NCBI GenBank assembly: GCA_963924565.1
Contig: OZ004613.1
Span: forward strand, 10,416,001 to 10,480,000
DNA length: 64,000 nt
From: Ascidiella aspersa
Lineage: Eukaryota
Reading direction: 5' to 3'
A program made the translations under genes and the position numbers. This document shows positions 5,472 to 47,753 of this stretch, piece by piece. Each line of letters starts with the position of its first letter. Position 1 is the first letter of the stretch. The notes beneath the pieces are model-generated. The model was not told the DNA's origin, searched no databases, and saw only the letters and a list, made by a program, of their open reading frames with translations.

Positions 5472-5750
5472 CTTTGAATATACAAACATTTAGCCGCGTA
5501 TAAAACGGTGAAACGCAACAACAACCAACAACTTTACATAAGAAAGCCAATTATTACGTGACAATGGTTGGGACACTACTACACAAGTTTGCAGTACGGA
5601 AGCATTTAAGGTTAAAAGTTACCTACAGTGCTGTTTGTTAGGATTTGTTATGTGAAATTTTTATAAAATTTAGCCAAAAGTACTTTCATGTAACGCCCCC
5701 TTATATGCGTTCAGCGCACCCCAAATGTGAAAGAGACCCAAAGCGCCCCT

Positions 5751-6040
5751 AAGTTGAGTTAAGTTGAGTTAAGTTGAGTTAAGTTGAGTTAAGTTGAGTT
5801 AAGTTGAGTTAAGTTGAGTTAAGTTGAGTTAAGTTGAGTTAAGTTGAGTTAAGTTGAGTTAAGTTGAGTTAAGTTGAGTTAAGTTGAGTTAAGTTGAGTT
5901 AAGTTGAGTTAAGTTGAGTTAAGTTGAGTTAAGTTGAGTTAAGTTGAGTTAAGTTGAGTTAAGTTGAGTTAAGTTGAGTTAAGTTGAGTTAAGTTGAGTT
6001 AAGTTGAGTTAAGTTGAGTTAAGTTGAGTTAAGTTGAGTT
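5751..6040 (+). repeat. Perfect (AAGTTGAGTT)29 tandem array
   Basis: 29 exact 10-bp copies. Confidence 0.98.
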
Positions 6041-10778: not shown

Positions 10779-10905
10779 ATGTTACTGCCGTGGACTTTAA
10801 TCGCCCTGCTGGTTTTTGGAACGTTACGGCTTTCTAGCGCGCAGGGATTTTTCAATAGCGGAACCAACTTTACCGCACCAAAAACCTACCAGCGATTCTG
10901 CAATT
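10779..10905 (+). CDS. RTK-A exon 1 (signal peptide)
   Basis: [22 protein letters not shown]...; donor GTGAGT at 10906. Confidence 0.85.
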
Positions 10906-13900: not shown

Positions 13901-16900
13901 TCATTCGAAGAATGTTTCTGACGATTCTCTTTGCTTAAATACAGCAGTATTCTGCTCTTGTTGAATAAAGTTGTTTGGATCTTTTTTACAACCTTTGTGA
14001 TTTTGCTTGGATCTTACGATATGGAAAAAAGATCAACAACTATAGAAATGTCGGAGCAACCTTAGACCACGATATTAACAAAAAAATAACAATAATATTA
14101 TTATTTTATCAACTTTAGCAAGGACTACGACTTGGGTTTGGCTTGTTATTTGATGAAAGTGACACAACTTGAATGAGATTAATTTTAGAATAAGTTGTTT
14201 ACAACACTGCAATGATCATTCCGTTTTGTTAACGTGTACCACAATAGACAGCATATCGGCGACCAATTCGAATATAAGACTATTTTAAGTATAACAACAA
14301 ACCTTAAATATTATTGTTCTGTATAGGTTACCTACAAAATCTACTTTCTTTTGAAAATCGGATTGTATATTTATTTCAGACGGTCAACAATCTGACATTC
14401 AAAGTCGACTGGGGAAAAAACTACGCTGGACACATAATGCCTTATTACAGGTGAAGCCAAACTTTGTTATATGCAGCGCATTCTAACGAATACTAAAAAT
14501 CAGAATACAGTTTATCGTGATACATTTTTCATTGTGTTGCCAAGAGTCCGAAGGCTTGAAAATATATTTATGTTTGAAAGTAACGCATTAGTAATTTTAA
14601 CCCTTAAAGTGTAATGTGTTGTGATATTATTTTCTTGGTTGACATATAGGCGACGATTTTCACGTAAGTATAATTATACGCCAAAGAGCCATTTGCCATT
14701 TGGGGCTAATTGCCTCAAGGCTTAGTCGTGACATGAGATAGAGTTAATTGCTGGTTTCTGATTGTGATACCGGTAAAATACCATATCGAAGCTCGGTTAC
14801 AGCCGCTGCCTATGAATTATTTCCACTTAAATTGGATTATTTACTTATTTAATACGCATTGCTGGAAAGTAAATGAAGTCTTGAAAAAATCGGATAAAGG
14901 TAGCTTTTTATATAAATTATATTTTTTATCTCAACTACTTGATTATAGCCAAAAGTAAATCTACCATTTCAACGTTTGCAGGCAATGGTTCCAAATAGGA
15001 CTCAACAATCAATTAAATATGAACAAGGCTGTGTCCGGTTGTCCAGAACTGCTTATTAGCAGTGGCGTCTACAACCATTTAGAAGCCACTCAGATATGCT
15101 GCGGTATGTATCATCACTATGGCATCTTGGAAATTGCATCACATTTCCCACTTGCAGTATTATATTTATTCATTGAGACCCGTAAGCTTGCATGGTATAC
15201 CACAATTAAAAACTTTCAAAATAAATTGCAAAGCCAAAAGGGTTGAGTAGATGTCAGTACATTAACTGAAGATGATACAAGTTTGAATAAAACTTCCTAA
15301 TTAGGATGTCGACTCGATCATTTTGGCTCTGCCATTCATTATCAAAAAATAAAATAAAATAAAAATAAAATGTAACTATTGTGTGTGTGAATTTAATATA
15401 ACGTGATATGCAGAAAATGTTATTTTTGGATATATAATTTGATCCTAATTGATTGTGAACTAAATACTTTTGTTGAATGCAGTTTTCAGTGTATACTTAC
15501 TTCAAATTTTAGTTTACGTGAACTCGGTACTTTAATTTTAACCTAATTTGTGAAACCCCTTAAAAACTAGAATTGTCCAGCTGGGACAACAATCCTGTAT
15601 ATATTTTCGATAAACTAGCAGCTAAGCATACATAGCAAGTTAACACTGTAGAGACTACAGTGCACAAATGTAGACTATAGGAGATTTTCGAAACCTAAGG
15701 CCCGCGAAAGGGCTCTTCTCATAATGTAGAACTACTTTTTAAACTTATTGCTTGCTCGAAAGCAATATAAAAAGGGAATTTTGCCGCAGACCACGGCAAA
15801 TCGCACACAACAATTCGGAACGTCACCATCGGTGAGATGGTGCCCGACTTCGATCGAGACGTTGCCAATCTGACGATCACCTGGCTTCCTCCAGTCGACC
15901 ACACCGAGAACACCGAATTCTTCATTTTTATCTTCGCAGGGCCGCACCTGGCCAAGGTTTACGTAAGTGTCCGAACTATTTTTAAACGTTGTCCCATAGA
16001 AGGAGATGATACATTTTGCACTGGACACCATCGCAGACTAATCCAAATATCTGTCGATTAATGAAGGAAGAAGGGCATACTAAAAAATAACTATAGTCTG
16101 CAGTGAGGTTCGAACCCACGACCTCCGATAATACCGAGACCGTCGCTCTCCCAACTGAGCTACAAAGGCTAAGAGGGGAAGACGCTAATGTTTGTTATCT
16201 TCTGTTAGATTCTAAGAACAAGCAACTTCGCATTGAAGGGTATCTACAGTATTATATCTGATACTTTTAATTACGAAAAACTCTGTCCGCAGATAAAATA
16301 CCATGAATGTTAAGGGTCGCTGGGCACTAATACAAAAATAACCTTCGAGAAATATGAATGTACCTTTCGAGAAATAAGAATTATATATTAAACAAATGAA
16401 ATCGTCCATGAAAGCGTTACATATACGCTAAGTGACTGGGTTTCCGGTAAAACACGGTTGAGCCCTGCGGTTTAAGCACTTCTAATGCCAGTATGCCACA
16501 CAAAATATGCACTTGTCAGAGTTCCCCGAATTCCCGCTGTCGGCAGTAAAACAAATGGTTATTTTTATGTAGGCCGCCGCTCTGTTTGTTGTCACTTTGG
16601 TCCGAGTTTGTTGGATTTCACAACCGACCAGCTTTCCAATTTTTTTAGTGTTTGACTATAGGGAAATACCTTACACAAAATTTTATAAGCCTTTCGGAAC
16701 CAAGTATTTTTTTAGCTAAAAAGGTTTTTTAGTCCTTTTGCGCGAACAATCCGCACATTGTTGGTTGGATCGGCCCAAGTATTTTCTACACCTATCTGAG
16801 TGCGTAAATGTAATTAAAATCTTAACCGGTACCGACTCCAGAATGGTGAGCACCAGACTAAATCGATGTGCGTCATATGTTTTTAGTGAGCAGGTAAACA

Positions 16901-19900
16901 AAATTTCCCGCTACAATAATTAGAACGACCAGAATAAGGATTCTTTACTTGGTTTATCCAGCTTTCGAGGCTTTTTCTTGTTTATAGTTTTTAATGTTAT
17001 TCGAATCAAAAAAAATTAATGCGTGAAGTTATTAACGTCAAATGACATTTATAGTAGGTACCGTGTGCTTAGCGACCGCTATGTAACATATTTGCAAGGA
17101 AACCACATTAAATCCTATAGATGATTTAGCGGAACATTGTTACGTCTAGCGGATTTTCTTAACACTATTTGTTAAATGAGCGCCCACGCATATAATCTGT
17201 TTATGCAAATATTAAAAATCGCATAATCTTATTTAGAAATCCGTTGCAAAACAAGCAAATACTGTCCCCTGTCAGGAGTGGCCAATTAAATCTTAAAGGT
17301 TTGGGTAAAGTTAACGGCATACTTTTGTCCGTAACATAACATTTTTATCCAACAGAATACCTGCTCGATTATCTTGTATACTAATTCTTTCACGGCCACA
17401 ACAACGTTAACTCTCTATAACATTAGATAAATGTGAGTTGTTAGGCAAGATGCGATATAACTATATACTTAAGCATATAAATATCCACCTGAGTCCCTCC
17501 TCAAGTCCACAACATTAGCGAACCCCCAAAGCAGACTAACTTTCACTGGTTTGCTACAGGATCAACGCTGGGTGCCGTACGACGGGCCTGCATCTCGTCT
17601 GGCCAGTTGCGATAACGTTACGCGGAAGTACCAGATCAAGGTCTTTGACGTTCCACGCAATTCGAAAGAGGACCACCTCCGGTTGTCTGTTCACACCATT
17701 TATCAGGACGAGGTATTTAGATCCTTGTGCGATCGTCAGACGTGCGAATTCACCACCTATTTGACGATGCAAGGTACGGAGAGACTTCGAGCTGTTTTCA
17801 ACTGCGTTTTTACCTTTCCTGTTGCTCGCAGTGTTTAATTAAGGGTAACTCTTTGGAAGAGGCTTGTAAAGGACTTGCCTTAAGCTCCATTCACGCGCAT
17901 TACTTGGCGTAGCAAGAAGGTTATCTGCTTTAAATGTTAGACTTTAACTATTTCTTTGTTGTAAATGCAATTATGAAATCTCTTTATTTTTTAAATTTAA
18001 AGGGTACTAAGTTATTAATAAAAACAAGGGGTTGCTGTAACACTGTTGGTATGCACAAACGCCTTTTATATAGGTCCTGTGCCCAATAGTTTATAAGTTA
18101 TGATCTTTACAGTGGATAGTTTAATCTTTAATAAAATAATAATTATTATAATTGATCCTTTACAACGTTGTAGTGGACTATATATACGCAACGTCTTTTT
18201 TCCTGTATGTTGTGAACAATCTGATATCATCAAAACGAAATTGCCGTTTTCCCAGCATTGGTTTACGGACTTATATATAGTAATATTCTTGACCCTTCAC
18301 AGCCTTAAACCCATGCGACAGCCGCTACGGAGCATGTGACGTGAACGCAAATTGCACAGCAGACGATGCGACGGGGTCAACGACCTTGAATGTCACCTGT
18401 AGCTGTTCCACTGGTTACGAAGGCAACGGAATTAATGGATCGCAAAGTAAGCTGTTTTTGTTTCAGCTACTGACATTTTTTAGGTATGATAGGCTACATT
18501 AGTGAACAGTTGAATTCGAATTATGAAAAAAAGGTTTAACTGAACGCATTTTGTAGGGTAATAACCATATTTTGAATATTAAGTGTTCCTTTACGGCGAT
18601 CATTTCACAACGAGATTTTCCCAATTTTTGCTGAAATAGCTATAAAAAACTACAACTATATTATAGACCACAGCTTTCTGGAACCGTAAAACAAACCAAC
18701 CAATTCCGTTTTAGAAGGTTTTTCTAACAAATACGTTAAACGTTTATGTGTGCATCCATCAACGGAATCGACCTAACAACAACATTGAAGGGGTTTATAA
18801 CCCACACCGCATAATCAAAAACAAAAATAAAAGGTTTCTGAACTTGTGTGTTTGGAAGAGGAAAGATTCGTAACGTTTAAGCAACGCTAGAACCTCTAAC
18901 AGTATTCGACATTCGTTAAATTAATTTCGTTTATGAGTTAATTTGGTGCTGCAGAAACGTCAACTTAGGAATCATTTACGTCAGAAGAGCGATTTTTCAA
19001 TGACTCTGAGTTAAAGGTAGAAATCTCCGATAAAATCTAATCAGAACCGATGCACGATTAGAACAAGTAGTATCGTTACTCATCCGTCATTAAAGTACTA
19101 TCGGTGCCGATCCGATATCAAATTAAAAGATGGTTTCCAGACATGTTTTTCCATTCAGCGCAGCGATTATTTTCTTGAAAATAAAGTATTAAAAAATAAA
19201 AACAGTTGATTAACAACTGGATGTAACTAACTTCCTAACACTTAACTTAAGCAAACCAAATAACCTTATAAAACAGCTTTTGCCGTTGGAAATTCATCTG
19301 TTTTGCCTAATTGAGCATGTTAATGACGTCATTTGGTATTTGTTTGGATCGCGAAACTTCTCGTTCATGAATGTCGGGATCGGATGAAATTAAAGTATCA
19401 GACATCCCTAGTGATGTGTTACTTGGTTGAGCAATAAAGTCTATAAAAAACTTCATTTGTTAAACAGGAGCGTTGGGAACCGGATGCGAGGACATCGATA
19501 TTTGTAAGAGTCCCCTCTCGCCCTGCGTCGACCACGGCGGCCTCTGTATGGACAACCCGCCACCGTCCATGAGCGCCAACTGTTCCTGTAGGCCCGGATA
19601 TTCCGGTGACGGGTAAAGAAGCTTTTTTAAATCGATATACGATTTACTGGCTTTGTATATCACTTGTTTGTTTTAGTGGGAGTTATAAATGGTTTGCTAC
19701 CCAAATTAGTTCACCAAAAAAAAAACTGAGAGTTTTTTTTCTGTAAATTTGGATTGGGGCCGACATAAGATTCTGACTTCTCGGCTAGGAGTTTATAGTG
19801 TTCAAAAAGACAAATTAGTTTCGGACCGCCGTGGCAGTTTATACCTTTACGTTCCACATGTTATTTTCATGCTTTTATATATGTTAAGCATCTGGCGTCT

Positions 19901-22900
19901 TGTTTTTAAACTTAATCAAAATTTAGTACTTTCCTTACTATTTCGACGCAGCGTGACAAGCGATTGTTTTTAATTGACATCCGACGATCAAATAAGTACA
20001 ACTTGACACCCTCATATGTTATACACCTTGTAACATGTTTTCTTTGTATTGCCGATAAAGAATAAAAAATAAATAAATAAACACATACAAAATGGGTCAT
20101 AAATAAACATAAAATAACACAAAGAGGCTGGAAACTGGTGGCTAAAAGAAATTAAACATTTAATAAAAAATAATATAAACTGTTAATATAAACAATACTC
20201 AACTGGTAAACCAAATGAACAATACACACACATATGTGCTAAACAATTTTGATCCATTCCTTATAAACCTGCTTTTTGACTAACGATTGCGGCACACAGC
20301 TAGTTGTTGGTCTAGCTTGTCTTGGCTTGCATCATTGTTCTACAAGTTCGGTTAGTCTGTGATGACCTTCGGTGTACTACTGGTAAACCGAAGTTTTAAA
20401 TTTTATTTCTAGGTACAAGAGTGGCCGAGGTTGTCGCAACGACACAGAGTTCAACCTTGCTATCGCCATACCGATGATAGCGCTCTTCCTAGTAATTGTG
20501 ATCGCCATAGCGTGGAAGTGGAGGGTCAGCAGACTGCACGAGACCGAGCTGAAGTGGTCGCAGTTTATCGCCAACTCCGCGCTTCAGTACACGCTCCCAC
20601 CAATGAACGGGGAAGCGGTGAGTTGGATTTATCGTCAAGTATAGCTGTCTAATACTATCGGTGGTAGTATCGGTACACGTCCGATACTAAGGTGGTATCG
20701 GTGGCGATCCAATACGAAATTGACATAGGAATTCCGATACATGATTTGCGATCCAACGCAGCAACTCTGCCATAGGTAAATTTATCAAAACATATTATCG
20801 GTTAACAATTGGAAACTAAACTTATTTAAGCTAAAGCAAATTTTGGCCTAATAACTTGAAAAATACTTTGGTACGTTGTAATTTTATCAATTTTTGTTTG
20901 AGCATAGTTATGATGTCATTTGGTATCGGATCGGTTGAGATACCTTACGTCCAAAATATCAGGTATCGGTATTGGAATAAAATGTGTTATTGGACATCTC
21001 TATCGTCAAGTTAGGACCTGTAAAATCTAGTCAAAAAGCAAAACATTTTAGGATTTTAAACAAAAATGCACCACTAAACATTTATAGCGTCTGCTGGTGG
21101 TGCATCTGTCCTGTGATCTCTTTGATTCCCTGGGCTTTTATTTGCTGAGATAATGCTTTTGCTGGTGTTGCTTGTAGCTCTTGTCAAGGCGTAAATTTGC
21201 TATTTAATTATACAAGTAAGCTTGTCGTTTGGTTAAAATGCTGTATTTATGCATGATGTGGATTGGTCTTGTGGTCGTTTTATTTCGCGTGAGAACTTGA
21301 GCATAAAAAGTGTAGCAAACATAATTAATTTTATTTGACAGATCCATGTTTTAAACTTTTACATAAAAATTATTTTATTTACCATAATTATTAAAAGTGA
21401 AAAAAAAATCTATTTGTATCATTTTTGGTCTTTTCTATGAGAAATTATGCTTGGAATGGAAAGAATTTCCTGATTTCAAAAGTTTATTACTGCTAATGAC
21501 TTCACAAAAAGTTGACTTGCAAAGGCAATACTGAGTTCGACCTGGAGTGGGACTTGACTTGTTATTTATCTAAAACGGCTTTACTTGGACTCAAGTTATT
21601 TCGAAATGACTTGTTTACAACACTAAACACACAGATAATAGCCTCAGCTATGGAGGCGACCCAGCGAAATCATATTTTTTCAAAGCAATAATTCGAGTAC
21701 GATTTGCCTTCTTTATAGGGCGACTGTCTGCCTACGTTCGGCGATAGATGGGAAGTTGAACGTGAGAGGCTGCGCCTGGGCGACGTACTGGGAAGGGGCA
21801 ACTACGGAGTGGTGTACAAGGGATGGTTGGGCGATGCCTTCATGGACAAGGACCAGTGTAGGGTCGTCGAGAGCACGGCGGAAACTCCTGTGGCAGTCAA
21901 GCTGCTGAAAGGTACGAATTCGGCCAAGCTGGGGTTATATGGGTGATAAGTGATGGAGATTTCCAACACACCTATGGTTTAAGCCGCAGCGCATTCAGTC
22001 GCCCTGCGGTAAGCGACGTTTGGTTTTCGAAAATTGTCCATGAATTTAAAACTCGTAAACTTTTTAAACTGATGAACTCATTCCATTGGATTACTATAAA
22101 CAACAGTCAGCGAGTACATATCAAACAACGCGGAAAAAGATTTTCGCAGGACATTGAAATACATACCTAAATTTAACAAGCAATGTATACAAGTCAATTA
22201 CTAATTTTAACACAGTTCATTTAAATAACCAAAGCTTAAGTTAATTGATTAGTACAAACGACTTAAGTCAAGTCAATCACTTTCTTTCAATTCGGCAGTT
22301 AAGTCACTTGAAAACCGGCAATCCGGTGCACTCAAGTTATTAAAACGCTGGTCTGACCATGTTGTCCCTGTTATTTATCACGCAAAAATGCTGTCCACAA
22401 AACAATCGAGTTTTACTCGTCTTAACAAATCCTTCTTCACGATCTCGTAGAGGGTCAGAACGAAGAAGCGTGTCTTTCCGACTTTCTGGCCGAGATTGGC
22501 TTCATGTTAAACGTGGGCTCTCACCTCAACGTGCTGGGCGTGATCGGATGCTGTACAACTGCCAAGCCTGTGCTGCTCATCACCGAGTTCCTCAAGTACG
22601 GCGACCTGCTGCACTTTTTGTGGGATGCCCGGGAGGTGAGTTTGTGCCATGTGTTTTTAGATAAGACCCGAGCTAATGGATATGGCTAGGTAACCGTCAT
22701 AAGCAAGTTTTGTATCGCTTTTCAGCAAATATTAGCAATCAATGGAGATATTAGTAGGATTATCAAAGCCCCTACGGAAGTAGGCAACATTTTAAACGTT
22801 TGAAATATCTCGTAATTCATTTTAAACATGGTGACTATGTTGAAAATGTAATAAATACAAATATTCCAAACCTTCAAAATGATACCTACTTCTGTATGGG

Positions 22901-25900
22901 CTTTGTTATTCTATGATCAAGTATACACTTAAGATTTTATGTTGGGAAAAAAATCATATATTTTTGCTTTTGTGTTAATTTCTTTGCTCAATGTTATTTA
23001 GAAAGGCAAATATGATATCTGATATACTGTCCCAAATTTTTAAAATATACTTTTAATGCGACAAAATTTGGAAAACAACCGTTCATCGCATAACAATATA
23101 CGCTATTACACGAATGTGACGTAGCGATGCTATGTGTTTGGCGAAAAGTATTAGGCTACGAATAAAAATGTTATTGTTGCACATTTCGAGGTTTAGCTCG
23201 TACTTATATATTTACACAAGAAACTTAGTAAAAACTATCGCAGATACCAGAAACATATCCAATAACACATTACACCACCTGCCGAAAGGTGTTCCGCTCG
23301 AGTGCACTGCACGTCACGGTCAATGACGCCAGGTAATCATGACGTATCTGACGCACGACACGTTTCCGAACGTGATGTTATTATCGCCTCACAGCAGTTG
23401 CTATGCGCCCACACAAACCAAATGGCCGATCACGTTGTAAATGATTTGTGTTGTCACGTCGGATGGATTGAATTTCCAAGTTTATCCAACACCAGCACAT
23501 TTAAACAAACAGTTTGGAATATTTCAAAACCACAAACCGTCTCGCACGTAGAGAGAAAAACTTTAAAGCCTACGTGTTTTTTGCGGTTTGTGTGGAGATA
23601 AAATGCGAAAATAAATGCTCCTATTTGTTGCGATTTGGGAATCAATGTCATGCTATGTGTGGCTCCCGCCTGTAAATAAGTTGTGTGTATCTTTGTCATC
23701 AGCAAAATTCAATTTAATTAAACTTTAAAGGAAAACGTTTTTTAACCAAATGTGTACTTAAGGACTTTCAGATAGATGAAATTGTCCTGAGATGTTCAGC
23801 ATTATAGCGCCTGGCTTTTCTGTACAGTTTTCAGTTTTTTAAAAGCAGGTTTCCAACTTATTGTTCGTAGATCATTATTATGTAATCACGCGAAAGTAAT
23901 AGTTGATTATCTTTTACAGGATTAAACGTTTTTTATTGGCTTTGATAAAGGTTGCTCAAACCACGAAAAACACAAATAAAAGATAAATATATATAGCTAT
24001 ACTGAATAAAACAATAAATGAAATAGAATAAATGCTGCGGGATCTACTTTCACAAAAAATAGCTAACCATTACAATTTACTTGAATTTCGTCAACTCAAT
24101 CGGTTTATTAAAATAGGTGTTTCGTTTTTATATAAACACGTTGAACTAAAACTGAGCTGCCTATATTTTGGAATTCCAGCCCAACAAATGCAACGAAGAT
24201 GCGCTCTACCACCTAACGGAAAAATCGCTTTACGAAATGGCCCAGCAGGTGGCGCAAGGGATGTCCTACTTGACCAAGGCCAGGATAATCCACGGCGATC
24301 TGGCCGCGAGGAATATACTGGTGGGCGAAAATCGCGTGTGCAAGATTTCCGACTTTGGTCTGGCCAACGATGTTTACAGGTTACCCTTTATTTTTTCTGT
24401 TTGACTGACTGTAATATTGACATGTACCTTAACTCCACAATGTATAGGCAACGTTGGTATACGACTGCTGACAGCTAATTTGTCAAAATAGTGCAAAAAC
24501 AAACTAATATTGGTGATACTTTTCATGAACGATATATTTAATGACACTCAAAATAATCATTCATTTTCTCTAAGTCTTGTGTCGTTAAAGTGCACCAAAC
24601 TTTACACAAACACAAAAACAGTTGTGCTTAAGTGATCAAAAACAATTAGACCTCACTGTTTTGACTCATTTGTAGTTTAGCACGAACTTTTGTGATGAAA
24701 TACTACACGTTTCTTGCGCCTGATTGCTCTAACTAACCAGTATTGTGGCGTGTTTTCAACTCAGATACGGCGTTATCAAAGGTCAATCTGAGAGATGCGT
24801 TCCTTTTAAGTGGATCAGCCCGGAGCGAATGATGTCCGGGAAAGTCCCCATTACCAGCAAGAGCGACGTGTAAGTCAAACGATACTTGCCGTTGTTAAGA
24901 CTTTGCAATTAAAGAACGAGAGCAAACCGAAAATTAGCCTAATCTAATACCCCTGGTAGATAATTATCGAGTGTATGATTTAAGGTTTAATTAAAATAGT
25001 TTCGTGCTTTAGACTATATCCAATGGATAATACGTAATATTTTTTGTAGTTACTTTACGGTTCTTAATTGGAGAAAATCTTCGATGTGTATTTCCAGGTT
25101 ACAACAGGGGGCTGTAATTTAACTTTTATTCTCAACTTTTACTGATCCACCATTATCTTAGCTTGTTATTTGTACGTCAAACCCTGACGTAATCGAGTTC
25201 GCCCGCGCAACGACTTGTCTCACCAAAAATCACCGAGCCATTCTAAACGTGACACAGATTTCCACCTGTAATCTTGGACAAAACGAGATATTCACAGTAC
25301 TATCACTTTAAATGGCAGCACGATAGCGCAACATTCACAGCATGCTTAATAGATTATCTCATCACGACTTACTTTTCGTTTACTTGAGCAGCAAAACGAT
25401 TTTGAAAGTCAAAAATACCTCCACGTTTACCCTTTGGATTGACACGTCTTGCAGAAACGTTTGTTCAATTTAGTTGTCATAAGTTCGTGTTTATCAATTT
25501 ACCTATAGCAACACGAATAAAATTACATGTTATGCCGAGATTTGTTTGTCAAATTATTCCTTTTTTTAACTATAGTTATTGCAAAAACTAGAATTTGCAA
25601 CTTGGAGCATTGTATTTTTTGATCTAAAGAAATAAAGACAAAAACATAAAGGCAGGTTTAAACCTAATTTTGCGCACACACCTAGCCTGTCGGAATGCAA
25701 CCTGTTATTACCCAAATCAGATCCCACCGCCACGATTTCGAAGGTCGTAATTTAAATGTAAGATGCCGTTTATTTTGAGCGACCAAAATCACGGCCCACT
25801 TTCGTTCCTGCACGCTTATATATTAAGATCTCAGCTTATATTATAATTAGATGGTTATGGCAATCCGTATACAATTTTTATTTTATGTGAACTAGTATAC

Positions 25901-27972
25901 AAATGCAATAGAATACAGTTGTACAATATTTTTGAAGGATAAACTTACAACAAAATTCAAAAGCTAAAAATAATAGAAACGAATGAATAATAAAACTGAG
26001 ATTTTTATATTATAACACAGAAATAGCCTATATTAACATTTTTTAGCTTTCAATGTGCTATTTTTTATAAGTTCGTTTAGTAAAATTAACTTAGTCCTCA
26101 ATGTAGTTGAACCCTAAACACTATCTTTCTTTAATGTCATTTTAAATTTTTTATTAAAAACCTCACATCTGTGATTACGTTCAGTTTCATGGTGTGTTAA
26201 AAAAGCCATAGTGTTGGATACAAGTCGTTACCATACGGTTATTTTTCAGTTGGTCGTTTGGAAACCTAATGTACGAGATGGTGACCTTGGGCTGTATGCC
26301 GCACATCGGGATTTCGTCCGATGAGCTCTTGCAAAACTTACGTTCCGGATACCGAATGAAGAAGCCGAGCACGTGCAGCGATTTAATGTAGGTTGCCCAA
26401 ACAGGGATTTTGTATAAACGATTCCAAGTATTCCTTGACCATTTATTAATTTACTGTAAAGATCACAATAAATGTAAGCGGAAGATAAAGGACTTCACTT
26501 CATTGTCATATACTGATGGCGATTACAATTTACAACACATTTCTGTATTATTTTGGCCTATATTGCGACTTGAAAGTAAACCAATTGTGGTATAACACAG
26601 TTTCAGCGACAAAATTAGCAAGTGAAATGAGGCCTTTCCTGAAAAGCATACTAAACGGATAAAAAAAACATGCAAACATGTATTGAAATGAAACTGTCAA
26701 CTATAATCAAGTCATTTGTTTTAAGATACGTTGTCAATATAGTCATTTTATCCAAGATGAGCCACGTCAGGTCTCTGGAACTTAAGTACAGCAAAACTCT
26801 TAAGTCAGTGACTCAAGTTAATAAAATCCGCTTTTTGCATTCCCTTAACCCAGGGTTCTTAAACTTTTTTATCGCGTACCCGTAAAAATAGCTTAAGTTC
26901 GCGCGGACCTGGGTCAGCATAAAATTCTTCAGAAATGACGTCATAAATTAGCGTCACAAATTCGCAAGACCTTATGAATCTGCCGTTAGCGGTCAAACAA
27001 ATGTAAAACTAAAATAAGGTCTCAATACATTCAAGCAGAAGGTGTCAATGTGTTTCTTTTTTCAATAAACTGTTGATTGGAAAAAAAACATTTTTAAACG
27101 AGGTACCAATATTTTAGCTATAGGCCTCCCTGTATCCTTTAAAACTGGTTCACCAACCCGGCCTTAACTAACTTTATCTTGTATCGCAGGTATTCGATCA
27201 TGTGCAAGTGTTGGGAGTGGCGTTCCTCGTCTCGACCGTCGTTCAGTGAGCTTGACCGAATGCTGGGAAACGCTCAGGGCAAGGGCGAAGACGCTGATTA
27301 CGTTAACATGGCTTTCGCCCTTGAACTGCTGGACAGAGAGGTTAGTAAAAATGAGCGTTTTACGCACACCCGTTGGTATTTAAGGTCAGACGTTAACAAA
27401 CAATTGGTACTTGAGGTGTCAGATATTAGCGATTAATACAGGATCTCTAAAAGACGACCGAAACTGTTTTATCCAAATATACGGAGAAATATTACTCGCT
27501 GGCCCTAAAATGTTTACTAATCGATATGCTTAAGATACTTTATTTATCCCTCAAATCAAGCCTTAAAATATAAAACTTGAGAGTCTGATATTTAAAAGTT
27601 ATAACCCAATATCGAATGCCCCGCCGCAAATGTAATAAAGCTTTGGCGTTTGTCGTTTTATTTTTCCTTTAATTTTTTTTTTTTCGAAAATTATTTGTTT
27701 TTATGTCTCATAAACCAAAGATGGCCAAGCGTTTAATCTATAGTTTTCCGTTTAAATGAATTATTTCTTTGTTTTGGCGGTGCTTGGCAATATGTCCCTT
27801 GCTTACACCTTCGTATTTCATTATATTGACTGCTAGCCTATACGTGTTGCTAATTCTCCCTTTTTGGCAGAAATATGCAAGTGAGATTAAACAGCAGCCT
27901 GAAAGTCAGGAGGAATCTGACTTTTCAGTGATCATTTCCAACGGGCCGTCGCACGAATACTCCATCCAATAG
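10779..27972 (+). CDS. Receptor tyrosine kinase A (FN3-like x2, EGF x2, TM, non-RD TK; FGFR/RET/Tie-like kinase), 18 exons, 899 aa
   Basis: join(10779-10905,11460-11594,12365-12458,12843-13038,14380-14450,14982-15103,15790-15962,17560-17773,18303-18446,19468-19612,20413-20617,21719-21911,22451-22635,24180-24379,24765-24869,26250-26387,27190-27340,27871-27972) = 2700 nt, all GT-AG, phases consistent. Motifs [36 protein letters not shown]. Confidence 0.92.
11460..11594 (+). CDS. RTK-A exon 2 (FN3-like start)
   Basis: WYTAKV...AHITWNF; homologous to RTK-B exon 2. Confidence 0.85.
12365..12458 (+). CDS. RTK-A exon 3
   Basis: [13 protein letters not shown]...YCEPG; needed for phase 1->2; matches RTK-B LDGFVVKFQDS. 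Confidence 0.85.
12843..13038 (+). CDS. RTK-A exon 4 (Cys-rich)
   Basis: FWVQ...C...C...CLCKVDC...C...GYF. Confidence 0.9.
13779..14012. mobile_element. Foldback MITE (~65-bp arms); related copy ~41253-41424
   Basis: ATCCAAGCAAAACCACAAAGGTTG...AACAAGAGCAGAATAC and its reverse complement. Confidence 0.8.
14380..14450 (+). CDS. RTK-A exon 5
   Basis: [23 protein letters not shown]. Confidence 0.8.
14982..15103 (+). CDS. RTK-A exon 6
   Basis: QWFQIG...HLEATQICC. Confidence 0.75.
15790..15962 (+). CDS. RTK-A exon 7 (FN3-like)
   Basis: EMVPDF...LTITWLPP. Confidence 0.88.
16028..16240 (-). mobile_element. tRNA-cassette repeat, diverged copy
   Basis: Reverse-complement GGTTCGAACC ... CCAACTGAGCTA. 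Confidence 0.75.
17560..17773 (+). CDS. RTK-A exon 8 (FN3-like end)
   Basis: DQRWVPY...YLTMQ. Confidence 0.85.
18303..18446 (+). CDS. RTK-A exon 9 (EGF 1)
   Basis: C...CDVNANC...[11 protein letters not shown]. Confidence 0.92.
19468..19612 (+). CDS. RTK-A exon 10 (Ca-binding-like EGF 2)
   Basis: CEDIDIC...C...C...[11 protein letters not shown]. Confidence 0.92.
20413..20617 (+). CDS. RTK-A exon 11 (TM + juxtamembrane)
   Basis: [23 protein letters not shown]. Confidence 0.92.
21719..21911 (+). CDS. RTK-A exon 12 (kinase I-II)
   Basis: DRWE...[10 protein letters not shown]...VAVKLLK. Confidence 0.95.
22451..22635 (+). CDS. RTK-A exon 13 (kinase III-V)
   Basis: FLAEI...[12 protein letters not shown]...YGDLLHFL. 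Confidence 0.95.
24180..24379 (+). CDS. RTK-A exon 14 (kinase VI-VII)
   Basis: [10 protein letters not shown]...[10 protein letters not shown]. Confidence 0.95.
24765..24869 (+). CDS. RTK-A exon 15 (kinase VIII)
   Basis: VPFKWISPE...KSDV. Confidence 0.95.
26250..26387 (+). CDS. RTK-A exon 16 (kinase IX-X)
   Basis: [14 protein letters not shown]...GYRMKKP. Confidence 0.95.
27190..27340 (+). CDS. RTK-A exon 17 (kinase XI, YVNM)
   Basis: MCKCWEW...RPSF...DYVNM. Confidence 0.93.
27871..27972 (+). CDS. RTK-A exon 18 (terminal)
   Basis: KYASEI...EYSIQ*; AATAAA at ~28158 and ~28269. Confidence 0.85.
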   Translation, partial: KYASEIKQQPESQEESDFSVIISNGPSHEYSIQ

Positions 27973-31685: not shown

Positions 31686-34600
31686 GTAAGTGTCTCCAGG
31701 CCAAAGTTTCGCCTCCTGTGTCATAAAGTATATCTGATTACAATCTCGACGTTGGCGTTATCCATAAAAATTGTTCGATTGCATTCCGAACGAAGAAGGT
31801 TCGCAATAAGAACGATTCTTCCAATTTTGGTTTAATATAAAAACAAAAAAAAAGAAATGAAAATAAATATTTTTGCAGCTTGATAAAATATATGGCTCTG
31901 ATTCATTAATACTTTTAATATTTTTTTCCGAATTTTAATATCAATTTTATAAATTATCTTTGTTGTTGAACAATCGTCATCTGGATTTGTAGCTTAAGCG
32001 CCTCCAACAAAAGCAATGTAGGCCTAATGACCATAACCAATATTTTAATTTAAAACAAATTTCTTCAACTTTTAAATTTCACAAAAATTATCGATTTTTT
32101 GTTAATCGATTACACTGTACGCGGTTAAGGGTTACTTGATGAGGTCATAATCACATCACGCACGTGGTACACAGCACAAGTTGACAATACAACGCTCAAA
32201 GCCAATATAACCGCTCATGTCAGGTGGAATGTTTCCTCGTCCCCTGCCGGTAAGTATTACATACAACATATATTTTTTTCGTGCTTTTTAGCTATGTTTT
32301 GTAAACCAGCGTAGATTTTCAACTTGAAAGGTAAATTTCTAAGAGATTTTACATTTTTATGAATTCATGACTTGTCATAACAGGTTTGTGTTGTAATACC
32401 AGTTTCATTGCTCCTAAATTAGAAATTGACCAACACTCCACACTTTTAGTGATTTGCTTAAAACATAAAGATGACGTTTACGAAACATCGTCGTTTTTAT
32501 TATCTTTACATTCCAAGCCTGCAACATCAAATCATGCTAATTATTTTTAAGAATTATCTGTTGTTAAATAAGTTACTCTACGAAAAAACGACAAAAATGA
32601 ATCGTGTTGTAGGTGTAATAACATTATTAAAGTTTGATTCAAAATATGCCTCGTGACCATTATATCCGATTAAGCAATCAAATGTATAGCCAGGGGCGAG
32701 AGATATTAACCGTAATTACGGTGCCCTATTCCCCGAATGCAGTGTAATCCTGTTAAACTTAAACGTTAAACAACTGTGTTGTCAACCTTGCTTTATCTAC
32801 TTGTGACATTCGAAAACGAAATTTCGAAAGGAAACTATTTTTAGAAACCTGTTATATAAGCCGACAAAACAGATATGTTAAAATAGTAGTTATAAAATGT
32901 TTTCACGGTACACTCATTTGTAATGCAAATGCACAACATTTAAAACATACGAGCACCGAAAGGTTAACACATGTAATTTTACAGTTAGAAAAGCTAAACT
33001 GCACCTGGTGCAGCTTCAGTAGTAATATCTCTGAACTATTTTTAAATCAAAACACAGGTTGTTGTTTTATTATAAAACACTGTGGCTCATTTTATGATAT
33101 GCGAAATATATAAGGTGATATATATGTATATATGTTTAATAAACCAATAACTGTTGCTAATTTAAAAATAATTGTAAATTAGCCTATAGTTGGATCTGAT
33201 GGTAACGTAATATGAATCTTTATGTAAAAAGTTTTGGTATGTAGGTTTAGAACTAGACGGATTCGTCGTAAAATTTCAAGATTCAAACACCATGCATGAA
33301 GATTCGAAATCTATTTTGGCGAGCAACGTCTGCATTCCTAAGTAAGAATCAAATCGGTACTTGTTCAATACAAGTCATCGGATAAAGTTTAGCGTGTAAT
33401 AGCTAAAACTATGATGATAATATACAATTTTCGGGTTTTAGGGGCAGTTTGTTTTGGGTGAATGCAAGTAACAAGACGCACTGCTCTAACGAAACATCGC
33501 TTTGTTCTAACTCCACGGCCCAAGATTGCCTCTGTGCCACGAAATGCAAGTTGTTTAATTACTCTTCACGCAGAAGTAGGAATTGTGATGACGTTGGCAG
33601 CAGCTACATCAAGGATTATGGATACTTTGCCGTTCAGTCAGTAAGTTTTTAATATTTTTTTATTTTTTTACTAAGAGAATTTTACTTGACTTACTAAGTC
33701 CTAAAAAAAAATGTATTCAGTTTGTCAGGTATTTGGAGTTCAACGTCGACATGGCCAGCCAGAAGTATGACGCGTATATTGTCCCATACTCCAGGTATTG
33801 TTTCGAAATATGTTTTTTCAATAGAGTGATACTTTACAGTTTATACCACAAAAGGTACAATTTAATTTTTTTTGTTTTTGTAACTAGTACATGCGTTTAA
33901 GTATTTTGAAATTGTTTTTTTTGGTGTAGGCTTTTCAACTGTTAATCTAACTTTTAGGTTTTCAAGATATTTCTAATTAGAGAAAACACAATTTCGACGA
34001 GCTCTAAAAACTGTAAACAAGTCAACCATTTTTACACTAGCAATAAGACAACACCTTAAACATGTATATTTTGATCTTTCAATTAACTTGCCATCTGAAC
34101 AATGACTTGACGTTTTCAATATCTCTACCTCTACGTTTTAAGGCAGTTCACCGGGAATTTTCCAAACAGTGACCAAGTGATCGAAATGCCTCGTAACTGG
34201 ATGGAGGTCTTCACCAACATGGGATATTCACATCACGACGCAGCTTCAATTTTATGCGGTAAAGCCGGCCATCCTTAACTTTACATTTTTATCGGAGTTT
34301 AAACAATTTTTTTGTTCAAACGTTAGATAAAACATGAAAATATATTTACGTCATCATCTACTTTATCTTAATTTATTAAAAATTGAAAGGTGTGCAGAAA
34401 CGTTGAAGGGTGAACACAAATATGTGTGGTAATAACTGTGATTTGCCCTTTTGAAGCTGATTTTGACCAACGATAACGCCTTCATTAGTACACCGAAAGC
34501 CATCGCAGATCTGTATCGCCTTCAATATGAAGTTGCTTGCACTAACAGAATGCCGCAAACATTGACGTATGGTTGTTTCTAGACTCGCTCCTCTCTCAGT

Positions 34601-37600
34601 CTTTGTAGCTCAGTCGGTAGTGCGGCGGTTCCGGTATGGCCGGATGTCGTAAGTTCAAACCTTACTGGGGGCTACAGTTGTTTTTTAGCCTGTCCTACTT
34701 GCATCTTACCAGATTCGACGAGTCTGAGATGGCCTTCGGTGTTTAGAATCAATGTTGCCTTAAAAGCCTATATATGGATCTTCCTGAATCAAAGTCCTGC
34801 AATGCTTGTCACTTAATCTATGCCCCTGTTATTTGTAGCAAACTCGATTGCACACCACTACGCGAGAAACTTCACATTCCACGAGTTGGTTCCCGATTTC
34901 AACCAGCTAACTTTAAGCCTCAACGTGTCCTGGTTGCTACCCATTGACAGCAAAGGACTGCTGACATTTTTTGTCTCGCATTTACACGGAGAATACGGAA
35001 CATCGTCGGTGAGTCTTTGTTTCTGCAAACTAAAAAACATACCATTTAGAAATGAGAGGTTAGACGTGAAATATGGGAAGCTGAAAAGCTTTTTAACGCA
35101 AGGAAACATTGAAAAACATCTATAAAACATAAACTATTGAAAATAAATCTAAAAAATGGCCTCAAGGATGCCCAAGAGATAATAACAATACAGGAAAACT
35201 AATTTAGTCCTCAAACTTAAAGCTGCTGAAATATTAGAGATTGTCGAATGTCAATAAGAACAAGGAGAACTTGCTGATAGGAAATTGCCACGCTTTACTC
35301 CAAGGCCGAGGTTGCAGTCCTCTGTTTTCTATGCGCCATTACATTTATCTCTGGTCCAAATAGAATGCACAAACTTTTACTTTCTTTTGGTCCTTCAAAC
35401 TACAGTACGGTGATTAGGGTATGTTTGGCACTTTGTGTAATCATTTAATACATTATTTATAATAGTTTCGACAGAAAGATAGCAGTTGCAGAGGAAGGGG
35501 TTTCACAAAAAGCGAGATAATCATGCCTTATACTTTGTTGACATTAATATTCCTTCTTGTTATCTCTTGGGTACAATACGCCACCTTTCACGCATGGGTA
35601 GTTAGTTGGACAACTTGTCCTAAGAAGTAAATCGGTTTAAATCGTTTCACCCAGAATAGGACATTCATTGCGACCAACGAAACAAGAAGAAGTGCGCGTA
35701 CATCATGCGTGAACAACACACAGTTTCAGATCACGGTCGAAAACGTTAAGCCCACACATAATTATACCTACGCCGTCACCTCTTGGTACGACCGTTCGAG
35801 ACAGCTCTGTGCCATTTACGGGTCCTGCTCTACTGATTTTACACTGCAAGTACCAGGTAAACTATAAGTTTAAGGCCACGAATTTCCAGTGTTGTAAACA
35901 AATGATTTGTAAATGATTTAAGTCCCAGTCAAGTCTTTTTGAACATATAACAAGTCAATGTCCCAGTCTAATCGGTTGCCCAAGTCAAGTCCCGGTCAAG
36001 TCATTATGAGGCCAAAAAAGTCAACTTCAAGTCATGTCATGTTTTTGGAATAACAGTAAATTGGTAAACTTGTCTGATTATGAGAAGTAATTCCGCTAAA
36101 AGTACCACAAATGCAATATACAGCAATAAAAGCGTTTGATGTGCAAAACGTTAGATAAATTATAATGAAAAGCGCTTAATTTAAGCCCAAGTTATTTGAC
36201 AAAATGAAGAAGTCCAAGTCAAATTATTTTGGTCAAAAGACTTAAGTCGAGTCAAGCCATTTGAAAACAGTGACTTAAGTAAAGTCAATGACTTTAGTCA
36301 TTACAACATTGCGGATGTTTTCACGTTTTTATCCCCAATGTCGGCATGAAAAATATAGGTTTTCAATTCCTTATGAATACTGCTGCTGGAATGCGCCTTT
36401 TACGATCTAAAACACTGTATGTTTTATATAAAAGTTTGGAAAAAAACTAAAGGTAATGCGACCAGCTCTAGGCTACATGGATTAAGACTTTTACTGTATA
36501 TGCGTGTTTCTAAACTTAACATTATTGCTTTGGAACACCATTAGTAAAATATTTTGGCTACTAATATTAATGCAATATTAACACTCGTCCCGAGTCATAT
36601 TAATTGAAATCGGCAAACAATATGTTGAACTTGCTTTAGTATGAAAAAAAAATGCAAACTATATCAGTCCTTTGAATCAACAAATTTTGTTGGGCAGGAT
36701 GAAACCACAAAGTTCCCTAAAGGCTCAAGTTTTTTTATGAAAAAAAAATAAAGAATATACGAGAACAACCTCGTCGCAATAGTAAGTGCTTCGGCAAAAC
36801 TAAAAACTTTTAAGGGAAATTTTAATTTCAGGTTCCTTAAAAATCTATATAGACTTTCAATGTCGAAATGTCAGCTTAAAACGCACTTGTTCGTAACAGA
36901 ATTTGATGCTTGTGAAAAGAGATACAATCTATGTGACCAAAACGCAAACTGCACGGCCCAGGATAGAACGGGACGAACTTCTATCAACGCAACCTGTGTT
37001 TGTCTTAGTGGATTCGTTGGGAATGGATACAACCCATCTTCGGGTAAGAACAAAGCAGTTGCTCGAGAATATATTTGTCCACTTAATCAACGTAGTACAA
37101 TGCAACGACTTCTATTAAAACAACAAATCAAACAAAGAGTTATTTAAGATTAACTCGACGATTGGCTATGACGCTATTTTTTCCGCGTATTCTAAATTAA
37201 GACATCACATAGGCCTGCAAAAAAAACAAATTTGACTTTGTTGGTATTATGGCAAACGTGGCTATTTGTAATTAGTTTCGGAATTACTACAATAATTACA
37301 CCGTTCATATATTTTCGTCTAAAACCAGAATTTATTGCATAAGAACACGATAATTTTTTTTTTAAATCGACCGATAAAGACGTATCAATAAGGATAGCAA
37401 AGCCCACACAGAAGTAGGTATTATTTTGAACGTTTTAAATATGTCTTTATGCATTTTTAACACCTCCAACCAATATGCTCTTAAGACCGATAAAGCATTT
37501 TAAAAGTAAATAGGGCAACACCGTAATGCGGAATTTACTTTGAAAATCTTACCTATAAACTTTGATTCTAAATTTTCCAGTAAAAGGTGGAACTGGGTGT

Positions 37601-47689: not shown

Positions 47690-47753
47690 ATGATTACGCC
47701 GCGTTACGTAGCCTTTTTGGTGTGTATTTTGGGATTTGCCGTTCTTGCAACTG
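47690..47753 (+). CDS. Gene 3 exon 1 (signal peptide)
   Basis: MITPRYVAFLVCILGFAVLAT; donor GTAAGT. Confidence 0.85.

What the first reader, a model, noticed from the sequence alone, without database searches (positions are those of the whole stretch)
24291..24800. Both RTKs have lost the phosphotyrosine-binding RD pocket (HGD + DFGLAN)
Seen: HGDLAARN at 24291-24299 and 41014-41022. The activation loop reads [17 protein letters not shown], with Asn in place of the usual DFGLAR arginine and no YY pair. VAVK Lys, alphaC Glu (FLAEI), catalytic Asp/Asn and DFG are intact. Established: those two arginines bind the activation-loop phosphate in FGFR/IR-type RTKs; HGD also occurs in insect Pvr. Inference: these are active kinases regulated independently of activation-loop phosphorylation, and the state predates the duplication.
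Basis: partly seen in the sequence, partly recalled or inferred. Interest (0 to 1): 0.7.

Follow-up and report, generated by a model that had tools for sequence, protein, structure and literature searches.

The report
Intact sea-squirt kin of pseudokinase STYK1
Two neighbouring sea-squirt receptor genes lack the usual phosphate-sensing on-switch of growth-factor receptors, a loss shared by their whole ancient family, which groups with the human orphan 'dead' kinase STYK1; they keep all catalytic residues and an outer receptor part, so they are likely working enzymes switched on in another, untested way.

Summary
The motifs are real: both genes (18 and at least 17 exons, open frames) read HGD and DFGLAN with Lys, Glu, Asp, Asn and DFG intact. 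It is also not special to this pair. Four more paralogues in the genome and 86 tunicate, amphioxus, echinoderm and hemichordate proteins share it. In trees built without the trait columns this family holds vertebrate STYK1/NOK (tunicates + STYK1 100/97), and a published tree joins the echinoderm form (TK-Sp1) to human STYK1; AU tests did not exclude other places for STYK1. Pvr's HGD is separate. Invertebrate members keep the catalytic residues, an FN3-like ectodomain and mostly a tail tyrosine; vertebrate STYK1 lost DFG-Asp, alphaC-Glu and the ectodomain. Best reading: catalytically competent non-RD receptor kinases, likely activated by dimer contact and not by the canonical pTyr pocket. Activity is untested, and two loop tyrosines remain. 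A known family, with a regulatory hallmark I did not find described.

The parts
10779..27972 (+). Gene 1: single-pass receptor tyrosine kinase, 18 exons, 899 aa (signal peptide, FN3-like ectodomain, 2 EGF, TM, kinase, tail)
   Evidence: Exons joined by coordinates give one open frame with GT-AG introns; no RNA support obtained
11460..17773 (+). Gene 1 exons for the FN3-like, cysteine-rich ectodomain
   Evidence: Aligns with tunicate homologues; FN3 label rests on homologues: sub-cutoff Pfam fn3, atlas leads 0.82-0.86, two predicted beta-sandwiches
18303..19612 (+). Gene 1: two EGF-like exons (18303-18446, 19468-19612)
   Evidence: Pfam EGF_3 E 2e-6 on the first, just under the cut-off; both align with the EGF pair of homologues
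20413..20617 (+). Gene 1: transmembrane and juxtamembrane exon
   Evidence: Hydropathy 3.1 over 19 residues
21791..22497 (+). Gene 1 N-lobe motifs: GxGxxG 21791, VAVK 21890, alphaC Glu in FLAEI 22483
24291..24299 (+). Gene 1 HGD: Gly replaces the HRD arginine (RET R873)
24351..24379 (+). Gene 1 DFG (24351), Asn at DFG+3 (24366; RET R897), Tyr at DFG+6 (24375; RET Y900)
24765..24869 (+). Gene 1 rest of activation segment: second Tyr 24766, Ile at the RET Y905 position 24775, chordate-specific Arg after the APE Glu 24826
27299..27307 (+). Gene 1 tail motif YVN, near the RET Y1015 position; candidate SH2 docking site
   Evidence: Grb2 pY-x-N consensus is recalled
32130..44723 (+). Gene 2: tandem paralogue, 17 exons found, at least 853 aa; candidate signal-peptide exon from 31592 unconfirmed
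   Evidence: kinase 73% identical to gene 1, ectodomain 34%
40981..40983 (+). Gene 2 Trp at the alphaE position that is Gly or Ala in all other rows
   Evidence: not checked against reads
41014..41022 (+). Gene 2 HGD
41074..41102 (+). Gene 2 DFG (41074), Asn DFG+3 (41089), Tyr DFG+6 (41098); followed by a GC donor at 41103
41497..41601 (+). Gene 2 rest of activation segment (Tyr 41498, Ile at the RET Y905 position 41507)
43947..43955 (+). Gene 2 tail motif YVN

Best explanation
The two genes are ascidian members of the deuterostome STYK1/NOK (TK-Sp1) receptor family, which has lost the whole phosphotyrosine-RD-pocket switch but in invertebrates keeps every catalytic residue, so they are likely active kinases that would be switched on by ligand-driven dimer or juxtamembrane contact and not by canonical activation-loop phosphorylation. 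Shown: gene structure, motif states, family-wide loss of the pocket with its phosphoacceptor, retention of the catalytic residues, homologous ectodomains. Inferred: (1) an unknown ligand binds the FN3-like/EGF ectodomain and pairs receptors; (2) the resting loop is predicted to fold as a helix after DFG and would be released allosterically; (3) the kinase would then phosphorylate flanking tyrosines, such as the tail YVN, which would recruit an SH2 adaptor such as Grb2. Vertebrate STYK1 is read as the later, degraded form, without ectodomain, DFG-Asp or alphaC-Glu.
For: Site counts. In 86 invertebrate proteins: HxD x = Gly 86/86, Arg at DFG+3 2/86, Tyr at the RET-Y905 site 1/86, basic at the K907 site 2/86. 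Catalytic residues: beta3 Lys 85/85 covered, alphaC Glu 85/85, catalytic Asp 86/86, Asn 86/86, DFG-Asp 86/86. In 30 control RTKs all four pocket sites are canonical (30/30). In 49 vertebrate STYK1/STYK1-like rows: Gly 49/49, DFG-Asp 0/49, alphaC Glu 0/48, which shows what decay looks like in this family. Trees without trait columns: family 99/99, tunicates + STYK1 100/97; without the whole loop 98/95 and 97/93. Grouping tunicate kinases with RET/FGFR (p 1e-4) or Pvr (p 0.006) is rejected. A published tree sets an echinoderm HGD kinase (TK-Sp1) beside human STYK1, support 99 as read from the PDF text (PMC8662651 supplement). Ectodomain profile: 18 of 19 chosen amphioxus/ambulacrarian ectodomains score above the best of 18 controls. 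A tail Tyr is present in 57 of 62 invertebrate tails. Kinase dN 0.21 against dS 1.05 between the pair. Precedents: NIK, an HGD kinase, is active unphosphorylated; RET, the nearest solved structure, is controlled by flanking regions.
Against: No activity data exist here. AU tests do not reject STYK1 outside the family (p 0.15, 0.15, 0.11) or as sister to all invertebrate members (p 0.36). Tyr at DFG+6 is kept in 85 of 86 invertebrate rows and Tyr at DFG+8 in 15 of 16 tunicate rows; a chordate Arg after the APE Glu (39/39 tunicate and amphioxus, 48/49 STYK1) could form another phosphate pocket. ROR1/2 are dead with near-intact motifs. The loop helix is a prediction on homologues, with pLDDT about 60-80. 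Rows are 90% clusters, not independent, and amphioxus/ambulacrarian rows were picked with HGD in view, so 86/86 is partly circular; the tree without that column still keeps all 137 family rows together (98). Gene 2 has Trp at a Gly/Ala site. Tie and vertebrate VEGFR/PDGFR were not in my trees.
Confidence: 0.62

Rival explanations
1. Active kinases that are still switched by loop phosphorylation, through a rebuilt pocket: the conserved DFG+6 Tyr (or the tunicate DFG+8 Tyr) is phosphorylated and read by other basic residues, such as the Arg after the APE Glu.
For: DFG+6 Tyr 85/86, DFG+8 Tyr 15/16 tunicates, APE+1 Arg in all 39 chordate invertebrate rows, basic residue at DFG+12 in most. Mps1 lacks RD and the beta9 base yet is activated by loop phosphorylation. 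Phosphorylating a Tyr in the predicted loop helix could unfold it.
Against: Ambulacrarians have Thr/Ala at APE+1 (0/47 Arg) with the same loop Tyr. STYK1, classed as dead, keeps that Arg (48/49), which points to a structural role. The equivalent RET Y900 is not activating.
Confidence: 0.2
2. Already pseudokinases or near-dead scaffolds, as ROR or PTK7: motifs look intact but the site is blocked, and signalling is non-catalytic as proposed for STYK1.
For: Their vertebrate kin are all classed as pseudokinases (265/265 in PMC8662651 file S1), and 9 of 27 TK-Sp1 entries were scored so. ROR1/2 keep VAIK, Glu and HxD yet are dead. Both models lack the active-type loop strand.
Against: Lys, Glu, Asp, Asn, DFG and the Gly-rich loop are nearly invariant over three invertebrate lineages, whereas they decay in vertebrate STYK1. 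ROR has DLG and an altered Gly loop.
Confidence: 0.12
3. The invertebrate family is real and non-RD but is not the STYK1 lineage; STYK1 is drawn to it by convergence or its long branch.
For: AU p 0.11-0.15 for STYK1 outside the family; STYK1 stem length 0.87.
Against: Three trees of mine with a mixture model or different columns and one published tree agree; the branching follows the species tree; STYK1 sides with tunicates against RET at 14 sites versus 2.
Confidence: 0.08

Closest known systems
Vertebrate STYK1/NOK (SuRTK106) and STYK1-like
   Same: HG in the catalytic loop (49/49), no DFG+3 Arg, hydrophobic residue at the RET Y905 site, Gly at DFG+9, PER motif; sister to tunicate genes in my trees
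   Different: STYK1 has GLG for DFG, no alphaC Glu, a 22-residue ectodomain and no Tyr at the first tail site in 7 tails read; the window genes keep all of these
KinBase family TK-Sp1 (echinoderm and chordate; PMC8662651 supplement)
   Same: The paper's representative reads HGDLAARN and DFGLADDIY, matching family rows here, and sits beside STYK1 in its tree
   Different: Tunicate members add two EGF repeats, have a tunicate-specific loop (NDVYRYG) and the APE+1 Arg; the paper's main text has no hit for TK-Sp1 or HGD
Ciona, Clavelina, Styela and Phallusia orphan RTKs (named FGFR3-like, VEGFR3, STYK1-like or uncharacterised)
   Same: Same loop motifs (16/16) and FN3-like + 2 EGF + TM layout; P0004 and P0007 are the nearest (99/96)
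   Different: The window pair is a lineage-specific tandem duplicate (100/94); gene 2 has the alphaE Trp
RET / FGFR
   Same: Nearest solved kinase folds (TM 0.82, 38% identity for a Ciona homologue); same loop length; RET activity also depends little on loop phosphorylation
   Different: They keep R873, R897, Y905 and K907; grouping with them is rejected; ectodomains differ
Insect Pvr
   Same: HGD
   Different: Keeps Arg/Lys at DFG+3, the Y905-site Tyr and the following Lys; Ig ectodomain; separate origin (p 0.006)
Non-RD kinases NIK, Bub1 (HGD) and Mps1 (HSD)
   Same: No RD arginine; NIK is active without loop phosphate
   Different: Ser/Thr kinases, not receptors; Mps1 still needs loop phosphorylation

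Membership tests
STYK1/NOK - TK-Sp1 family | Kinase domain groups with STYK1 and TK-Sp1-type kinases apart from RET/FGFR/PVR | tested here: met
   99/99 and 98/95 with trait columns removed; published tree agrees
STYK1/NOK - TK-Sp1 family | Alternative placements of STYK1 statistically excluded | tested here: inconclusive
   AU p 0.11-0.36
STYK1/NOK - TK-Sp1 family | Shared motifs HG-D, Gly at DFG+9, PER | tested here: met
STYK1/NOK - TK-Sp1 family | Conserved linkage or rare shared introns with vertebrate STYK1 | tested here: inconclusive
   0 of 5 recalled neighbour markers lie on contig C7, and they scatter over several contigs; vertebrate introns not available
Vertebrate-type STYK1 pseudokinase | DFG replaced by GLG, alphaC Glu lost | tested here: not met
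   Both genes keep DFG and Glu
Vertebrate-type STYK1 pseudokinase | Ectodomain reduced to about 22 residues | tested here: not met
   Ectodomain of over 450 residues in gene 1
Non-RD kinases | No Arg before the catalytic Asp | tested here: met
   HGD in both genes and all 6 paralogues
Non-RD kinases | Activity independent of activation-loop phosphorylation | not testable with these tools
   Needs kinase assays
Active receptor tyrosine kinases | Signal peptide, ectodomain, one TM, HxDxAARN tyrosine-kinase loop, Lys/Glu/Asp/Asn/DFG | tested here: met
   (signal exon of gene 2 unconfirmed)
Active receptor tyrosine kinases | Measured phosphotransfer and ligand-induced activation | not testable with these tools
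   No assay, no ligand known
RET/FGFR | Phylogenetic membership; Arg/Arg/Tyr/Lys phospho-switch; cadherin or Ig ectodomain | tested here: not met
   p-AU 1e-4
Pvr (PDGF/VEGF receptor) | Phylogenetic membership; Ig ectodomain | tested here: not met
   p-AU 0.006 with one Pvr row; EGF/FN3-like ectodomain

The most novel reading that the evidence does not exclude
These are living, ligand-binding, catalytically active forms of the human orphan pseudokinase STYK1, and they define a class of non-RD receptor tyrosine kinases activated purely allosterically. The phospho-switch was lost first, in the deuterostome ancestor; ectodomain and catalysis were lost later on the vertebrate stem. The family's expansions and swapped ectodomains (LRR, Ig, Sushi, EGF in amphioxus; LDLa in a crinoid) may mark recognition receptors, as non-RD receptor kinases are in plant immunity (recalled).
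Probability: 0.3. Interest if true: 0.75.

Novelty: new member of a known kind. Interest (0 to 1): 0.5.

Why it matters
Human STYK1 is an oncogenic orphan with no structure, no ligand and untested ATP binding (PMC13259870 passages). Its catalytic loop is even tabulated there as HKD, while all 49 database rows read HG. Intact invertebrate kin give a direct way to ask what the ancestral receptor bound, how an RTK is switched without the phosphotyrosine pocket, and in what order a pseudokinase decays. Ascidians allow both biochemistry and knock-outs. The genes themselves are ordinary members of a catalogued but unstudied family.

Tried and rejected
Pvr kinship and RET/FGFR membership: rejected. 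Pseudogene or assembly artefact: rejected by open frames, dN/dS about 0.2 and independent contigs for gene 1. Expression: no RNA holder was listed; the one RNA run, read to about 6 in 100, laid almost only on repeats of gene 1, which is no evidence either way; gene 2 was not checked against reads. Synteny with five recalled neighbours of human STYK1: uninformative. Homodimer fold of a homologue's intracellular region: no answer, score 0.00. Fold searches name RET, FGFR, Eph and ALK as near ties and do not tell active from inactive state; the wide search did not test the ectodomain. The family search over 1.8 billion representatives was crowded by multi-kinase proteins; of 10 unnamed HG-type hits looked up, 7 were deuterostome, 1 a sponge, 1 a tapeworm and 1 unnamed, and the sponge and tapeworm proteins were not placed on a tree, so a range beyond deuterostomes is not excluded. 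Literature: ten searches found no paper describing HGD or RD-pocket loss in this family. D'Aniello 2008 (amphioxus NOK expansion, recalled) and Dardick and Ronald 2006 (recalled) were not held, and the supplements of PMC4898815 could not be read; any of these may already state part of this. Earlier scan notes: none relevant.

Full report
Observation. Six-frame translation finds HGDLAARN at 24291 and 41014, DFG at 24351 and 41074, VAVK at 21890 and 39845, and FLAEI at 22483 and 40278. The activation loop is split by an intron within the Arg codon in both genes. Joined by coordinates, gene 1 (10779-27972, 18 exons, all GT-AG) gives 899 aa; gene 2 (32130-44723, 17 exons, one GC-AG intron, first exon unsure) gives at least 853 aa, each with only a terminal stop. 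The layout is signal peptide, cysteine-rich FN3-like region, two EGF repeats, one TM, kinase and tail. The pair is 73% identical in the kinase (dN 0.21, dS 1.05) and 34% in the ectodomain. Contigs from another run match gene 1's loop exons.

What is lost. In RET, pY905 is held by R897 and K907 (and R770), R873 is the HRD arginine, and R897 equals IRK R1155 (PMC5199340 and PMC3988870, passages). The window loops have the same length as RET's, so positions map directly: R873 to Gly, R897 to Asn, Y905 to Ile, K907 to Gly. Pocket and phosphoacceptor went together. But 'no YY' understates what remains: Tyr at the RET Y900 position and a second Tyr two residues on.

How old. The genome holds four more paralogues on the same contig, in two tandem pairs, all with HGD and the same loop. 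Database searches return tunicate proteins first, which makes this an ascidian, then amphioxus, echinoderm and hemichordate proteins, and vertebrate STYK1. Counts in 86 named invertebrate rows (16 tunicate, 23 amphioxus, 47 ambulacrarian): Gly before the catalytic Asp 86/86, Arg at DFG+3 2/86, Tyr at the Y905 site 1/86, basic at the K907 site 2/86; in 30 control RTKs 30/30 at each. These rows are 90% clusters and many are near kin. The non-tunicate rows were picked with HGD in view; a FastTree without that column and without the loop still keeps all 137 family rows on one side (98), and the one amphioxus HRD kinase that I put in the trees (P0065) falls outside. The pair alone would not prove age: third-position divergence is lower in the two loop exons (20 of 84 against 39 of 89, Fisher p 0.006, chosen after the fact), a hint of gene conversion.

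Which family. In a 67-row mixture-model tree with the two trait columns removed (9 of 76 rows left out as fragments or near-duplicates), the family has 99/99 support, branches as Ambulacraria, amphioxus, then tunicates with vertebrate STYK1 (100/97), and the window pair are sisters (100/94). With the whole loop removed (54 rows) the values are 98/95 and 97/93. STYK1 sides with tunicates against RET at 14 sites versus 2. AU tests on 33 rows reject tunicates + Pvr (p 0.006) and tunicates + RET/FGFR (p 1e-4). They do not reject STYK1 with conventional RTKs (p 0.15; 0.11 with all columns on 37 rows), with Src (p 0.15), or outside a clade of the invertebrates (p 0.36). Independent support comes from PMC8662651 (passages and supplement parts 1-2 read): its tree lists an echinoderm 'TK-Sp1' kinase, whose sequence reads HGD and DFGLADDIY, beside human STYK1 with 99 as read from the PDF text; TK-Sp1 occurs there only in echinoderms and chordates. 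PMC4898815 (passages) says invertebrate deuterostome sequences root all RTK subfamilies except Pdgfr and that Styk1 probably lost its ectodomain secondarily. So the family and its link to STYK1 are known in outline. Tie and vertebrate VEGFR/PDGFR were absent from my trees, and a linkage test was uninformative. Pvr has HGD but keeps a basic DFG+3 residue, the Tyr and the Lys.

Active or dead. Invertebrate rows keep beta3 Lys (85/85 covered), alphaC Glu (85/85), catalytic Asp and Asn and DFG-Asp (86/86 each). The 49 vertebrate rows keep the Gly (49/49) but have DFG-Asp 0/49, alphaC Glu 0/48 and catalytic Asp 43/49. This internal control argues that catalysis is under selection in invertebrates. 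A Tyr lies shortly after the kinase in 57 of 62 invertebrate tails long enough to read, as YVN in both window genes, and is absent at that spot in 7 STYK1 tails parsed. The tunicate pre-EGF ectodomain is homologous to those of amphioxus and ambulacrarians: 18 of 19 chosen FN3-type rows score above the best of 18 controls, and shuffles score lower still. The FN3 label is a lead from three weak sources. Other members carry LRR, Ig, Sushi, EGF or LDLa domains.

Mechanism. Best reading, with steps inferred: ligand pairs the receptors, a dimer or juxtamembrane contact switches on the kinase, and flanking tyrosines carry the output. Precedents read in passages: NIK (HGD) is active without loop phosphate and is held so by a flanking segment (PMC3431628); RET is regulated by flanking regions, and EGFR and ACK1 allosterically. 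AlphaFold models of two tunicate homologues (the spliced window proteins could not be folded) both place a helix right after DFG (residues 170-178; 705-713). That shape is recalled from resting ALK and EGFR, and it suggests a switchable enzyme more than a constitutive one, but confidence there is about 60-80 and ALK-like sequence may drive it. Against full phospho-independence: the DFG+6 Tyr is kept in 85 of 86, chordate members have a new Arg after the APE Glu, and Mps1 is non-RD yet loop-activated (PMC3513839, passages). STYK1 cell work treats K147R as kinase-dead while reviews class the protein as a pseudokinase (PMC12209456 and PMC13259870, passages), so the question is open even in human.

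Verdict. Real and correctly read, but a family trait some hundreds of millions of years older than this duplication (the age is from general knowledge). The genes are new members of a catalogued family. I found no description of its RD-pocket loss in ten literature searches, though two recalled papers and one supplement were out of reach. The value lies in the link to STYK1 and in a testable activation mechanism. Interest 0.5.

Noticed in passing
window 40981-40983: Gene 2 has Trp at the alphaE position that is Gly or Ala in all other rows; it may impair this copy, or be an allele or an assembly error.
   Followed up: partly
window 41103: GC donor (GC-AG intron) inside the activation loop of gene 2; gene 1 has GT at the same place.
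   Followed up: no
window 24180-24869 versus 40903-41601: Lower third-position divergence in the two loop exons (24% against 44%, p 0.006, post hoc): possible gene conversion between the paralogues.
   Followed up: partly
L003, L004, L006, L008 (G000:C7): Four more family genes in two tandem pairs on the same contig; the L006/L008 pair has an extra intron between the catalytic loop and DFG.
   Followed up: partly
window about 47660-62000, + strand: Mosaic gene with C-type lectin, TSP1 and Sushi domains next to gene 2.
   Followed up: partly
P0064, P0099, P0113, P0146, P0025: Same kinase fused to Ig, Sushi, LRR, EGF (amphioxus) or 15 LDLa repeats (crinoid): ectodomain swapping within the family.
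   Followed up: partly
frog STYK1-like rows such as P0194: Six vertebrate rows have also lost the catalytic Asp (Tyr or Phe) and the AAR arginine: decay is still going on.
   Followed up: no
PMC13259870 Table 2: Lists STYK1's catalytic loop as HKD, whereas all 49 database rows, human included, have Gly at that position.
   Followed up: yes
L022 (G000:C3:36499679) and L024 (G000:C2:11016504): Other tyrosine kinase exons of this genome with GFG or NLG in place of DFG: candidate pseudokinases.
   Followed up: no
G000 contigs C17, C53, C20: Apparently intronless enolase, triosephosphate isomerase and cold-shock genes on contigs outside the nine large ones, beside spliced copies there: possibly bacterial DNA in the assembly.
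   Followed up: no
window 5750-6040; 1767-2373, 16028-16179, 34519-34742: A 10-base tandem repeat array, and a dispersed tRNA-like short repeat family.
   Followed up: no
P0070 and about 40 similar unnamed hits: Many Src/Frk-like SH2-kinase proteins without SH3 from metagenome contigs, with HGD, HQD or HRN variants; unrelated to this family.
   Followed up: no
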